DNA from: a virus
Lineage: Duplodnaviria; Heunggongvirae; Uroviricota; Caudoviricetes
DNA: 45,899 nt
Reading direction: 5' to 3' (one strand)
Virus record (IMG/VR): IMGVR_UViG_2711768067_000020
Part shown: positions 5,442 through 7,553 of the stretch, one piece after another
Layout of the letters: each line of letters starts with the position of its first letter
Numbering within the stretch: the stretch's first letter is position 1
Notes under the pieces: generated by a model
Seen by the model: only the letters and a program-made list of their open reading frames with translations
Told to the model about the DNA's origin: nothing
Databases searched by the model: none
Translations under genes and position numbers: made by a program

Positions 5442-6300
5442 GCGGATGGTGCAGGCCTGAAATTATGATACTAACAATGAAGGTAAAATGCATCGGCAGT
5501 CTGATTGGTCGTAGTGAGGCGGCGGTCAGGATGAAAGCCCGGGTTAAGGGAATAAGCCTGATTCTGCGGGGTAATTTTCACCAGTCAACAAAATATCCGT
5601 AGCGCGATAACGGTCAAAAATCATGGCGCTGACACTTTTGTGCCACTGTAGATGACTGTACCTAAGTTCAGGGGAGAAGAACACGTCCGGTGGGATGGTC
5701 GGGCCAGATTTAAAGGGCAGGTCATGGCTCCAGCCAGTACGCTGGCAATGGAGGCTGCCTGGCTGGAAATTGATATGGGAACCACGCCACTCAGGGATTT
5801 ACTGCCGGTCCAGAGAATAAATTCCTGTTACGGTTACACCACTGTGATCTTGCAAGTGCAGGAAAGTAGGTCTACACGGTAACGCGAGTGCGTGTAACTT
5901 TTGATGTTATTTCCGTAGAAACACCGGACAAATTTTCGCTGGCAGGTCATGCTGAAGGTATAAATCTGCAGATTATGGACAATTACGGATATCCGGCAAG
6001 AGCCGGAAAAAGCATGCCGCCTCTAATTCTCAGTGGAAGATGGACTTGATTATACTCATTGCATTGTCAGAAATAGTTATCCATTAAAGGCTGGCTATTC
6101 CAAACAGGATGTTGATTACAAAAATGTAATCAACATGTAAGGTTTATACTCTTCAATATGCGTATAATTTTCCTTATTTTGTTAACTTTAAATAACAAGC
6201 TATGCACGAGGTAAAGTCGGATAAGTTTATCTGGATGTAATATATATTATTTGTAGTGTTTATAACTTTATTTCATGATAACCAATAAAAGGAGTTTTTT

Positions 6301-7059
6301 ATGAGGAACATAATGGCAGGTTTTTTAATATTCCTGTCTTCTGCTGCTTATGCTGATATCAATCTGTATGGTCCTGGTGGCCCGCATACAGCCTTGCTTG
6401 ATGCAGCCAAACTTTATGCCGAAAAAACAGGTATTATAGTGAACGTTCATTACGGCCCACAGAACAAATGGAATGAAGATGCCAAAAAAAATGCAGATAT
6501 CTTGTTTGGCGCATCAGAACAATCTGCTCTGGCTATCATTCGGGACCATAAAGACAGCTTCAGTGAAAAAGATATTCAGCCTCTTTATCTGCGAAAAAGT
6601 ATTTTACTGGTAAAGAAAGGTAATCCTAAAAATATCCGGAGTATTGACGACCTGACCAGACCCGGGATTGGCGTAATTGTTAATGATGGTGGTGGTACCA
6701 GTAATACATCAGGCACTGGCGTCTGGGAAGATATTGCCGGACGTAAAGGGAATATAGAAACTGTCGCCGCAATCCGAAAAAATATTATTTTATATGCGCC
6801 CAATAGCGGAACTGCACGTAAGGCTCTTGAGAATCAGCCTGAAGCAGATGTCTGGATAACCTGGGCTGACTGGGCAGCCAGTAATCCAGAAATTGGTGAT
6901 GTCGTGGAAATAGCGCCAGACTACGTGATATGGCGTGATATGAACATTACAGTACGTCAGGATGCAAATGATGAAACCCGTCGATTTGCAGAATGGCTAC
7001 AAACCGATGAAGCGGCGCCTGCATTCAAAAAATATGGCTGGACCAGGAAAGGCACTTGA
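6301..7059 (+). CDS. paa: Paa/AcfC-like secreted solute-binding-fold protein (adherence-associated family)
   Basis: 252 aa; signal peptide MRNIMAGFLIFLSSAAYA; mature N-terminus ADINLYGPGGPH... typical of the AcfC/PEB3/Paa family; AGGAG SD; AT-rich flanks. Confidence 0.75.
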   Translation: MRNIMAGFLIFLSSAAYADINLYGPGGPHTALLDAAKLYAEKTGIIVNVHYGPQNKWNEDAKKNADILFGASEQSALAIIRDHKDSFSEKDIQPLYLRKSILLVKKGNPKNIRSIDDLTRPGIGVIVNDGGGTSNTSGTGVWEDIAGRKGNIETVAAIRKNIILYAPNSGTARKALENQPEADVWITWADWAASNPEIGDVVEIAPDYVIWRDMNITVRQDANDETRRFAEWLQTDEAAPAFKKYGWTRKGT

Positions 7060-7397
7060 CATCCTCCACGTCCTTCAGAACGTGGATTCTTTTTCCGGAT
7101 GCCGCGCCAGCGGCATGTAGGGGCAGCTCACAAAACGGAAAAAATTGTACGCTAAGCCTCGCCAGGTGAACTGAATTCATTCCGATATGGGAATTCCCAT
7201 ATCGGACGAAAACGGCTTGCTGTAACGGCAGAGTTAAGTAGAATTGCTGCGGGTGCTTGAGGCTATCTGCCTCGGGCATGAACACCAACGGCAGATAGAT
7301 AAAAGCCCCACCCGACTATAAATCGAAGTGAGGCCCCTATATGCTCGTCACATATAGATTGCCTCTTACGGACCGAAAGGTCAAGGAGAAGCAGGCT

Positions 7398-7553
7398 ATG
7401 AAGCAGCAAAAGGCGATGTTAATCGCCCTGATCGTCATCTGTTTAACCGTCATAGTGACGGCACTGGTAACGAGGAAAGACCTCTGCGAGGTACGAATCC
7501 GAACCGGCCAGACGGAGGTCGCTGTCTTCACAGCTTACGAACCTGAGGAGTAA
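7398..7553 (+). CDS. hok: Hok/Gef-family type I toxin (track ORF 7341..7553 is the overlapping mok-like leader frame)
   Basis: 51 aa MKQQKAMLIALIVICLTVIVTALVTRKDLCEVRIRTGQTEVAVFTAYEPEE; one TM helix plus conserved C-terminal region; upstream inverted repeat TCCGATATGGG-AATTC-CCATATCGGA at 7180-7215 consistent with Sok/leader structure. Confidence 0.85.
   Translation: MKQQKAMLIALIVICLTVIVTALVTRKDLCEVRIRTGQTEVAVFTAYEPEE

What the first reader, a model, noticed from the sequence alone, without database searches (positions are those of the whole stretch)
6112..6170. Perfect 9-bp inverted repeat operator-like site upstream of paa
TTGATTACA-AAAA-TGTAATCAA is a perfect palindrome about 170 bp upstream of the paa start, followed by TATAAT-like hexamers. 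This looks like a binding site for a dimeric regulator controlling paa, and no regulator gene sits next to it in the window.
Basis: seen in the sequence. Interest (0 to 1): 0.4.

Follow-up and report, generated by a model that had tools for sequence, protein, structure and literature searches.

The report
HprR/CusR-type activator box upstream of paa
The palindrome upstream of the prophage adhesin gene paa is real, and its conserved core closely matches the DNA box that E. coli's copper-sensing (CusR, PcoR) and oxidant-sensing (HprR) regulators use to switch genes on, so this virulence-associated gene is probably wired to those host signals.

Summary
The palindrome is real and longer than reported. 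It has perfect 12-nt arms (6109-6120 and 6125-6136) around an AAAA spacer; about 0.015 such repeats are expected per window.

Only the inner part is conserved: ATTACA-AAAA-TGTAAT (6115-6130), a third half-site TGTAAGGTT (6136-6144), and a TATAAT -10 hexamer (6163-6168). All 31 positions are invariant across five diverged E. coli paa lineages, against 60% in the 5' UTR. The same layout recurs upstream of a Providencia homologue that is only 67% identical in protein.

This core matches the published CusR/HprR box of the K-12 hiuH promoter at 24 of 25 specified positions. It has the same half-sites as the box upstream of pcoA. It also shares the layout I found at hiuH, cusC, silC, silE, pcoE and pcoA: box, 5 nt, third half-site, then a -10 hexamer 41.5 nt from the box centre. 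In E. coli paa that distance is 40.5 nt.

paa is therefore most likely activated by HprR, CusR or PcoR in response to oxidants or copper. These regulators are encoded outside the window. The outer arms are specific to this lineage. Binding and induction are untested, and I found no report of this link.

The parts
6109..6136 (.). Full perfect palindrome: ATGTTGATTACA-AAAA-TGTAATCAACAT (12-nt arms, 4-nt spacer). The outer six bases of each arm are symmetric only in the prophage lineage and, imperfectly (9 perfect pairs), in plasmid L003.
   Evidence: The outer left arm is not conserved: region 6100-6114 has 4 of 15 invariant columns.
6115..6130 (+). Core box ATTACA-AAAA-TGTAAT, the predicted binding site for an HprR/CusR/PcoR-type response-regulator dimer. 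Its centre (6122.5) lies at about -52.5 from the predicted start site.
   Evidence: 16 of 16 positions are invariant in five E. coli paa lineages. The box is present in L208/L209 and, as CTTACA-AAAA-TGTAAT, in Providencia L010. Half-sites and spacing are the same as the hiuH box CATTACAAAATTGTAATG and the box upstream of pcoA. There is one match in the window against 0.04 expected.
6136..6144 (+). Third half-site TGTAAG(GTT), a direct repeat of the right half-site with 11-bp periodicity. It overlaps the position where a -35 hexamer would sit.
   Evidence: 9 of 9 positions invariant. It is identical to TGTAAGGTT at the same offset in the hiuH promoter. Equivalent sites occur at cusC, silC, silE, pcoE and pcoA, and in L209 (TGTCAG) and Providencia (TGTAAT).
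6163..6168 (+). -10 hexamer TATAAT of the predicted paa promoter. No recognisable -35 hexamer sits 16-18 nt upstream.
   Evidence: 6 of 6 positions invariant. It lies 40.5 nt from the box centre; the distance is 41.5 nt at hiuH, cusC, silC, silE, pcoE, pcoA and Providencia paa. The promoter scan found no -35/-10 pair here.
6175..6175 (+). Predicted transcription start, inferred by placing the -10 hexamer at -12 to -7. Not mapped. It would give a 5' UTR of about 126 nt.
   Evidence: Inference. Searches of published EHEC start-site data gave nothing usable.
6301..7059 (+). paa (adfO), an AcfC-family periplasmic solute-binding-type protein of 252 aa.
   Evidence: RefSeq: AcfC family adhesin Paa; Pfam SBP_bac_11, E = 1.6e-34.
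7065..7096 (+). Terminator-like hairpin plus T-run directly after paa. A second GC-rich hairpin follows at 7099-7116.
6100..7122 (+). The paa cassette shared between this prophage and IncF plasmids: box, promoter, gene and terminator. Flanks differ by context on the left. On the right, the prophage differs from the plasmids, which share a right flank with each other.
   Evidence: Plasmid homologues at 85-89% nucleotide identity align from 6097-6115 to 7117-7122.
5652..6100 (+). Fimbrial-subunit pseudogene remnant that abuts the cassette. RefSeq extends it to 6140, through the palindrome, only because the first in-frame stop is there.
   Evidence: It is 85% identical to an intact fimbrial gene (L002 3915-4502), and that homology ends near 6100.

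Best explanation
The inner part of the palindrome is a binding box for the CusR/HprR/PcoR group of OmpR-family two-component response regulators. Together with a third half-site and a consensus -10 hexamer it forms the gene's own activator-dependent sigma-70 promoter.

Proposed mechanism: phosphorylated HprR (activated by HOCl or H2O2 through HprS), CusR (copper or silver through CusS), or PcoR where a pco plasmid is present, binds ATTACA-AAAA-TGTAAT and the downstream TGTAAG. From about -52.5 it recruits RNA polymerase to a promoter that has TATAAT but no -35 hexamer, and so switches on paa independently of phage transcription.

Shown here: the sequence match, the shared promoter layout, and selective conservation of exactly these elements. 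Inferred: the start site, which regulator binds, and inducibility.

The extra symmetry that makes the palindrome 12 nt per arm is specific to this lineage. It is probably not part of the recognition site. It may have arisen by template-switch 'correction' of a quasi-palindrome, because the changes to the left arm all increase complementarity to the right arm. That explanation is inference.
For: (1) Match to an experimentally defined box. K-12 hiuH reads ATTACAAAATTGTAAT-GCTGC-TGTAAGGTT. paa reads ATTACAAAAATGTAAT-CAACA-TGTAAGGTT. 24 of 25 specified positions agree, with identical spacing. PMC9302797 gives CATTACAAAATTGTAATG as the CusR and HprR box of hiuH-msrPQ, which is induced by copper through CusSR and by HOCl through HprSR. 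PMC8249747 states that HprR and CusR recognise the same sequence.

(2) The box upstream of pcoA on a pig E. coli plasmid is ATTACA-CGAT-TGTAAT. The cusC, silC, silE and pcoE boxes have the same geometry with TGACA/TGTCA half-sites.

(3) Shared layout. At hiuH, cusC, silC, silE, pcoE and pcoA the box is followed after 5 nt by a third half-site, and a TAnnnT hexamer lies exactly 41.5 nt from the box centre. In paa the distance is 40.5 nt (E. coli lineages) or 41.5 nt (Providencia).

(4) Selective conservation. Box 16/16, third site 9/9 and -10 hexamer 6/6 are invariant, against 73/122 in the UTR and 4/15 in the outer left arm region. The motif and its spacing persist in L208/L209 (86% protein identity, different flanks) and in Providencia (67%), where the rest of the upstream region cannot be aligned.

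(5) Pseudomonas CusR, CopR and CzcR bind ATTACATnnATGTAAT by EMSA, DAP-seq and mutagenesis. I read the box that way from the paper's mutant sequence; its text prints ATTCATnnATGTAAT.

(6) The same motif occurs in copper-resistance islands of marine bacteria.

(7) The cassette keeps only about 15 nt upstream of the box in every genomic context.
Against: No binding or expression data exist for this site, and the start site is predicted rather than mapped.

In the E. coli lineages the box-to-(-10) distance is 1 bp shorter than at all six reference promoters.

Other close paa homologues lack the box, so it is not universal in the family: E. albertii chromosome (87% protein identity), Citrobacter and Salmonella plasmid, and Edwardsiella.

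The cognate regulator genes are not adjacent, unlike the known K-12 targets.

A 2026 study of HprR in O157:H7, with ChIP-seq giving 41 peaks, does not mention paa or adfO in its main text. Its peak table is not held in the library.

Whether Providencia encodes an HprR/CusR-type regulator was not checked.
Confidence: 0.7

Rival explanations
1. The whole 9-12-nt palindrome is an operator for an unidentified dimeric repressor (phage, plasmid or host).
For: The 28-nt symmetry is perfect and far above chance. It lies upstream of paa and is 100% conserved in about 576 E. coli genomes.
Against: That conservation is uninformative, because the whole region is at least 99% identical in those genomes. 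In diverged lineages the outer left arm is free to vary (GTGC, GTAC, GGGT, TATAC, TCAAC) while the inner box is invariant. No second copy or half-site occurs in the window, including the immunity region. A centre at about -52 is not a position from which repressors usually occlude RNA polymerase.
Confidence: 0.08
2. The palindrome has no function. It is a by-product of illegitimate recombination at the junction between the fimbrial remnant and the cassette, or of quasi-palindrome correction, in AT-rich DNA.
For: It sits within about 10 nt of the junction at about 6100. The outer arms are lineage-specific. The substitutions in the left arm all increase symmetry relative to plasmid versions.
Against: The junction lies upstream of the whole palindrome, and plasmid copies with other flanks carry the same core. 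The core, the third half-site and the -10 hexamer are invariant at 31 of 31 positions, against 60% background. They also match six characterised promoters in sequence and spacing. This rival may still explain the outer arms alone.
Confidence: 0.12
3. The palindrome acts as an RNA hairpin (terminator, processing site or stabiliser) in transcripts reading through from the phage early operon.
For: The hairpin is predicted to be stable: -13.8 kcal/mol on the + strand (z = -2.9) and -16.6 kcal/mol on the - strand (z = -4.2). It lies downstream of the replication genes, roughly where lambda has tR2.
Against: There is no T-run after the stem, and the stem has only 3 G-C pairs. The terminator scan does not report it. 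No Rfam family matches it. The stem is not maintained in plasmid or Providencia versions, which form only 5-6 bp. It came in with the paa cassette rather than with the phage backbone.
Confidence: 0.04
4. The conserved A-tract acts as a distal UP-element subsite for the RNA polymerase alpha C-terminal domain, without a dedicated regulator.
For: ACAAAAATGT is A-rich and centred near -53, a preferred alpha-CTD position (established knowledge). The promoter lacks a -35 hexamer.
Against: An UP element would not require conserved flanking TTACA/TGTAA half-sites, a third TGTAA repeat, or a match to regulator boxes whose centres are not A-tracts. The pcoA box has CGAT at its centre and silC has ACAT.
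Confidence: 0.05

Closest known systems
CusR/HprR box of the E. coli K-12 hprR-hiuH intergenic region (CATTACAAAATTGTAATG)
   Same: Identical half-sites ATTACA/TGTAAT and 4-nt spacer. The third half-site TGTAAGGTT is identical and lies 5 nt downstream. There is no -35 hexamer, and a TAnnnT hexamer lies about 41 nt from the box centre.
   Different: paa is on a prophage or plasmid and is not next to the regulator genes. The box-to-(-10) distance is 40.5 rather than 41.5 nt. The central spacer is AAAA rather than AAAT. The paa site has six extra symmetric bases on each side. The 5' UTR is about 126 nt, against about 25 nt for hiuH.
Box in the pcoA-pcoF intergenic region of the plasmid pco copper-resistance determinant. 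A review states that PcoRS regulates the pcoF promoter there. That pcoA is PcoRS-regulated is from memory (Rouch and Brown 1997).
   Same: The half-sites are exactly the same (ATTACA-N4-TGTAAT), and a TAnnnT hexamer lies 41.5 nt away. pco was originally found in E. coli from pigs (from memory), and porcine strains are a major reservoir of paa.
   Different: The third half-site at pcoA is weak (TGTTTC). The pcoA box is in a divergent promoter region inside a metal-resistance island. PcoR is absent from most paa-positive STEC (from memory, not tested).
CusR boxes at cusC, silC, silE and pcoE (ATGACA-N4-TGTCAT)
   Same: Same 6-4-6 geometry, same third half-site at the same offset, and the same 41.5-nt distance to the -10 hexamer. 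The L208/L209 paa variants even use TGTCAG as the third site.
   Different: The half-sites are TGACA/TGTCA rather than TTACA/TGTAA.
Pseudomonas CusR/CopR/CzcR palindrome ATTACATnnATGTAAT (PMC11195947)
   Same: 13 of 14 specified positions agree, with the same spacing. Binding and copper or zinc activation through this palindrome were shown by EMSA, DAP-seq and mutagenesis.
   Different: Different genus and different regulators. The paper prints the box as ATTCATnnATGTAAT; the version used here is my reading from its mutant sequence.
Prophage 'moron' (a self-contained promoter-gene-terminator cassette in a lambdoid prophage)
   Same: A discrete cassette from about 6100 to 7122 with its own predicted promoter and terminator, inserted between the replication genes and the hok/sok-nin region. 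It has lower GC than its flanks.
   Different: Its promoter appears to be wired to a specific host two-component system rather than being constitutive.

Membership tests
CusR/HprR/PcoR (CopR-type) response-regulator box | Inverted repeat AT(T/G)ACA - 4 nt - TGT(A/C)AT | tested here: met
   Window 6115-6130 is ATTACA-AAAA-TGTAAT. The half-sites are identical to the hiuH and pcoA boxes, and the geometry is that of the cusC, silC, silE and pcoE boxes.
CusR/HprR/PcoR (CopR-type) response-regulator box | Box centre 41.5 nt upstream of the first base of the -10 hexamer (about -53.5), at a promoter with no usable -35 hexamer | tested here: met
   The distance is 41.5 nt at all six reference promoters and in Providencia paa, and 40.5 nt in the E. 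coli paa lineages, which is 1 bp off. The scan found no -35/-10 pair. The start site itself is predicted, not mapped.
CusR/HprR/PcoR (CopR-type) response-regulator box | Third half-site in direct repeat, 5 nt downstream of the box, at effector promoters | tested here: met
   paa has TGTAAG at 6136-6141. The equivalents are hiuH TGTAAG, cusC and silC TGTCAC, silE TGTCAT, pcoE AGTCAC and pcoA TGTTTC. The site is absent in the direction of the regulator genes. I derived this feature here by comparison; it is not a published definition.
CusR/HprR/PcoR (CopR-type) response-regulator box | Purifying selection on the box relative to its surroundings | tested here: met
   31 of 31 positions are invariant in the box, third site and -10 hexamer, against 73/122 in the UTR and 4/15 in the outer left arm region. 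The motif is kept in L208/L209 and in Providencia.
CusR/HprR/PcoR (CopR-type) response-regulator box | Binding by the phosphorylated regulator, and induction by copper, silver, HOCl or H2O2 | not testable with these tools
   No data found. Literature searches returned nothing on paa regulation. The HprR ChIP-seq and RNA-seq tables of PMC13064566 are not held.
CusR/HprR/PcoR (CopR-type) response-regulator box | Target lies next to the cognate regulator/kinase genes (the usual arrangement for these 'single-target' regulators in K-12) | tested here: not met
   No CusR, HprR or PcoR homologue is in the window (tblastn, best E = 0.066). The flanks of plasmid and Providencia copies carry none either. 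silE and pcoE show that adjacency in a divergent arrangement is not obligatory.
Intrinsic (Rho-independent) terminator | G+C-rich stem followed by a T-run | tested here: not met
   The stem has 3 G-C pairs in 12, there is no T-run, and the scan does not report it.
Lambdoid CI/Cro operator | Several related copies clustered at the immunity region | tested here: not met
   There is a single copy. No half-site with at most 1 mismatch occurs elsewhere in the window.
Prophage moron | Autonomous promoter-gene-terminator unit with sharp boundaries against the phage backbone, found in other contexts | tested here: met
   The boundaries at about 6100 and 7122 are defined by plasmid homologues. A terminator lies at 7065-7086, and GC falls to 0.31-0.33.

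The most novel reading that the evidence does not exclude
paa/adfO and its plasmid-borne relatives are direct, previously unrecognised targets of the HprSR and CusSR (and PcoRS) two-component systems. If so, a mobile virulence-associated adhesin or periplasmic binding protein would be switched on by host-derived oxidants (HOCl, H2O2) or by copper in the inflamed or copper-supplemented gut.

This would enlarge a regulon regarded as nearly single-target in K-12. It could account for part of the reported adherence and colonisation defect of an O157:H7 hprR mutant. It would also suggest that the AcfC/Paa protein has a role in envelope copper or oxidant stress.
Probability: 0.5. Interest if true: 0.65.

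Novelty: new member of a known kind. Interest (0 to 1): 0.55.

Why it matters
In the papers I could search I found nothing on how paa/adfO is regulated. It is a widely used virulence marker of porcine EPEC/ETEC and of STEC.

A near-perfect HprR/CusR box in the canonical activating position gives a concrete, cheap hypothesis to test: induction by copper or by neutrophil-type oxidants.

It connects three separate observations:
- The K-12 HprR/CusR regulon is tiny (PMC8249747).
- hprR is needed for O157:H7 adherence and colonisation (PMC13064566).
- adfO mutants adhere poorly to HeLa cells (Ho et al. 2008, cited in PMC8565820).

It would also be an example of a horizontally moving cassette that carries a docking site for a core-genome sensor system rather than its own regulator. 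This is relevant to pig production, where copper is used as a feed additive (from memory).

Tried and rejected
**Other copies and a possible regulon**
- Searches of the window and of 5,426 E. coli genomes found no further copies. The genome search can only detect near-identical copies.
- A viral-contig scan for box plus third site returned 48 hits, 44 of them paa prophages, so there is no wider set of phage cassettes with this box.

**RNA explanations**
- Terminator scan, folding and Rfam gave nothing that survives comparison with homologues.

**Published start sites and regulation**
- Supplements of the EDL933 Cappable-seq paper hold no entry for paa or for its upstream sequence.
- The Sakai dRNA-seq paper has no supplement held.
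- Batisson 2003 is not held.
- Text searches for paa, adfO or Z2053 regulation found nothing.

**Other regulator consensus sequences (from memory), rejected on spacing or half-site**
- FNR: TTGAT-N4-ATCAA; here the spacing is N12.
- CRP, and TyrR (TGTAAA-N6-TTTACA, opposite orientation).
- CpxR (GTAAA-N5-GTAAA, 1 nt off), ArcA (TGTTA), RstA, PhoP, PmrA.
- EvgA (2-nt spacer), GacA/UvrY (opposite orientation), IHF (not conserved).
- Integron attC and XerCD dif.

**Other leads**
- An AggR/Rns-like arrangement (A-N6-TATC, then 22 nt, then TAGTGT at 6221-6259) was noted but not pursued, because the -10 hexamer is poorly conserved.
- The junction-artefact idea was rejected for the core, since the junction lies at about 6100, upstream of the palindrome.
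- Copper-related context of distant AcfC homologues: one Acinetobacter plasmid has the gene between copB and a DUF411 gene, another does not, and neither has a box upstream. This is anecdotal.
- The small marine proteins downstream of the same motif have no Pfam match.

Full report
**Observation.**
The perfect symmetry is longer than reported: ATGTTGATTACA (6109-6120) and TGTAATCAACAT (6125-6136) around AAAA.

In 200 block shuffles of the window, perfect inverted repeats with arms of at least 12 nt and a spacer of at most 12 nt occur 0.015 times per window. Two are observed; the other is at 7181-7206. The 22-nt pattern with up to three mismatches occurs only here, against 0.03 expected. A consensus TATAAT lies at 6163-6168, and paa starts at 6301.

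**Context.**
The window is a lambdoid prophage. The gene order is Cro/CI-type regulator, YdaT, replication genes, DUF1627, a fimbrial pseudogene, paa (AcfC-family, Pfam SBP_bac_11), hok/sok, DUF968 and RusA.

RefSeq runs the fimbrial pseudogene to 6140, through the palindrome. Alignment with an intact fimbrial gene (L002, 85% identity) shows that homology ends near 6100. The last dozen codons are unrelated.

Plasmid-borne paa homologues (85-89% nucleotide identity) align with the window only from 6097-6115 to 7117-7122, and their left flanks all differ. paa is therefore a discrete cassette of about 1 kb. It starts about 10 nt before the palindrome and ends just after a terminator at 7065-7086. 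GC drops to 0.31-0.33 over its upstream region.

**What is conserved.**
Among 577 E. coli genomes the upstream region is at least 99% identical in 574, so that conservation says nothing. The diverged copies are informative.

Across the window and four plasmid lineages:
- The box ATTACAAAAATGTAAT (6115-6130) is invariant at 16 of 16 positions.
- TGTAAGGTT (6136-6144) is invariant at 9 of 9.
- TATAAT is invariant at 6 of 6.
- The 5' UTR is invariant at 73 of 122 positions.
- The region holding the outer left arm (6100-6114) is invariant at 4 of 15.
- The flank outside the cassette is invariant at 1 of 40.

In the plasmid lineages L004-L006 only ATTACA/TGTAAT pair. In L003 nine pairs remain.

Two further lineages have unalignable upstream regions but keep the motif.
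- L208/L209 (86% protein identity, divergent alpha/beta-hydrolase gene upstream) have ATTACA-AAAA-TGTAAT-CATAA-TGTCAG and a TATGAT hexamer 40.5 nt from the centre.
- Providencia alcalifaciens (67% protein identity, next to an integrase) has CTTACA-AAAA-TGTAAT-TATTC-TGTAAT and TATACT at 41.5 nt.

In the roughly 274 kb of the 80 homologue loci fetched, a relaxed box pattern occurs only twice. One is this Providencia site.

Homologues in E. albertii (chromosome), Citrobacter, a Salmonella plasmid and Edwardsiella have different upstream regions without the box.

**Identification.**
A metagenome scan with the conserved motif returned mostly unrelated AT-rich contigs. It also returned a family from marine samples in which the motif precedes a small secreted protein. 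These loci sit inside copper-resistance islands: a P-type ATPase with an HMA domain, a cupredoxin, a MerR-type regulator, an RND pump and a CusS-type kinase.

That lead pointed to the 'copper box' regulators.
- PMC11195947 shows by EMSA, DAP-seq and mutagenesis that Pseudomonas CusR, CopR and CzcR bind one palindrome. I read it as ATTACATnnATGTAAT from the paper's mutant sequence; its text prints ATTCATnnATGTAAT. The paper quotes E. coli CusR as binding AAAATGACAAnnTTGTCATTTT.
- I then read the E. coli sites directly. K-12 cusC has ATGACA-ATTT-TGTCAT.
- On a pig E. coli IncHI2 plasmid the pcoA-pcoF spacer has ATTACA-CGAT-TGTAAT. silC/silR, silE and pcoE have the TGACA/TGTCA version.
- The K-12 hprR-hiuH spacer has ATTACAAAATTGTAAT-GCTGC-TGTAAGGTT. 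PMC9302797 names CATTACAAAATTGTAATG as the CusR and HprR box of hiuH-msrPQ, which is induced by copper through CusSR and by HOCl through HprSR.

paa reads ATTACAAAAATGTAAT-CAACA-TGTAAGGTT. That is 24 of 25 specified positions identical to hiuH, at identical spacing.

**Shared layout.**
For the six effector promoters (hiuH, cusC, silC, silE, pcoE, pcoA) the box is followed after 5 nt by a third half-site in direct repeat. A TAnnnT hexamer starts exactly 41.5 nt from the box centre: TATCCT, TAAAGT, TAAAGT, TATAAT, TATAAT and TATTGT. In the opposite direction, towards the regulator genes, neither feature is present.

paa has the third half-site. Its hexamer lies at 40.5 nt in the E. coli lineages and 41.5 nt in Providencia. 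No -35 hexamer is present.

If the hexamer occupies -12 to -7, the start site is about 6175 and the box centre is at -52.5. From memory, the CusR box at cusC is centred at -53.5; the 41.5-nt distance reproduces that value.

**Mechanism.**
The best-supported reading is that paa has its own activator-dependent promoter. The activator would be a phosphorylated response regulator of the CusR/HprR/PcoR group bound at 6115-6141.

These regulators are 52-60% identical to one another, and none is encoded in the window. hprRS and cusRS are chromosomal, and pcoRS is on plasmids. HprR and CusR are reported to recognise the same sequence with different affinities and to have very few K-12 targets. The TTACA/TGTAA half-sites match the hiuH and pcoA sites rather than the cusC type, but which regulator dominates cannot be decided here.

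The sequence match, the layout and the conservation are shown. The start site, binding and inducibility are inferred.

**The outer arms.**
The six extra symmetric bases on each side are not conserved. Relative to the plasmid versions, the left-arm changes all increase complementarity to the right arm. That is what template-switch correction of a quasi-palindrome produces (established mutational mechanism; inference here). Selection for tighter binding cannot be excluded.

**Rivals.**
- A repressor operator spanning the full palindrome is disfavoured by the variable outer arm, the absence of other copies and the position.
- A junction scar is excluded for the core, because the junction is upstream of it and other contexts carry the same core.
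- An RNA hairpin role is disfavoured. There is no T-run and no Rfam family, and the stem is not maintained in relatives.
- An UP-element reading does not explain the half-sites or the third repeat.

**Novelty and relevance.**
I found no report on paa/adfO regulation, or linking it to copper, HOCl, CusR, HprR or PcoR. The library is incomplete.

[quoted passage not shown] It attributes this to ler and hiuH and reports 41 ChIP-seq peaks. paa is not mentioned in the main text, and the tables are not held. An adfO mutant is also reported to adhere poorly to HeLa cells.

The site is best filed as a new, predicted member of a known kind of regulatory site. It sits on a mobile virulence cassette, away from the regulator genes.

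**Verdict.**
Confidence in the HprR/CusR/PcoR-box reading is about 0.7. Interest is moderate (0.55), because the prediction is specific, cheap to test and biologically meaningful, but it rests on sequence comparison alone.

Noticed in passing
window 7181-7206: TCCGATATGGGAATTCCCATATCGGA is a perfect 13+13-nt palindrome with no spacer, the longest in the window. It lies between the end of the paa cassette (about 7122) and the sok/hokD module. Only a sub-threshold minus-strand Rfam 'sok' match overlaps it (7143-7308, E = 0.17). It is unexplained.
   Followed up: partly
window 5652-6140: This is a fimbrial-subunit pseudogene remnant, 85% identical to an intact gene of a chaperone-usher operon (L002 3915-4502). 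It is truncated at about 6100 by the paa cassette at a short microhomology (ATTCC vs ATTAC). The RefSeq annotation extends it to 6140 only because that is the first in-frame stop.
   Followed up: yes
window 7099-7116: A second GC-rich hairpin, ATGCCGC-GCCA-GCGGCAT, follows the paa terminator directly. It is shared with the plasmid copies and marks the last conserved bases of the cassette.
   Followed up: partly
window 7251-7553: A complete hok/sok-type toxin-antitoxin module: Rfam sok at 103.9 bits and hokD at 7398-7553. It lies directly downstream of the paa cassette, consistent with the reported constant linkage of adfO with 'ckf'.
   Followed up: partly
L108, L110, L145, L151, L155, L158, L183, L184, L192, L202 (metagenome contigs): A marine family carries the same box and third half-site. 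In most members (nine of the ten listed; not L145) a palindrome TTGATCTnnATCAA or a near-palindromic variant, of FNR/CRP type, follows about 25 nt further on. The motif lies upstream of a secreted protein of about 118 aa with a CxCGDCYY motif and no Pfam match. In the two loci whose neighbours I scanned (L155, L158) it lies inside a copper-resistance island. L108, L151, L155 and L192 also have TTGATTACA upstream; L108 and L151 have TGTAATCAAC downstream, as in the paa outer arms.
   Followed up: partly
L216 6977-7705 (Acinetobacter junii plasmid pA): An AcfC/Paa-family gene lies between a copB gene and a DUF411 gene. A DUF411 gene also occurs in the sil/pco island. This hints that some family members belong to copper clusters. 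No box lies upstream, and an IS element intervenes.
   Followed up: partly
L208 about 1317-1333: One plasmid variant has a 5-nt spacer in the box (ATTACA-AAAAA-TGTAAT), an extra A in the homopolymer run. If this is not a sequencing error it would shift the half-sites out of register.
   Followed up: no
L252 (viral contig), downstream of the box: In one prophage copy the sequence diverges immediately before the -10 hexamer (…caatatgtg|aaccgccccggg…). This suggests an insertion or rearrangement that separates the box from paa.
   Followed up: no
window 6221-6259: ATAAGTTTATC followed after 22 nt by TAGTGT resembles the AggR/Rns-type promoter arrangement (A-N6-TATC, then 21-22 nt, then the -10 hexamer; from memory). 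The TATC part is conserved in most plasmid copies (TATG in L003), but the hexamer is not.
   Followed up: no
many AT-rich metagenome loci, e.g. L093, L112, L157, L172: Arrays of GTTACAAAA and TGTAAT repeats occur around promoter-like sequences in unrelated AT-rich organisms. They show that the bare motif is not specific to copper systems outside the Proteobacteria.
   Followed up: no
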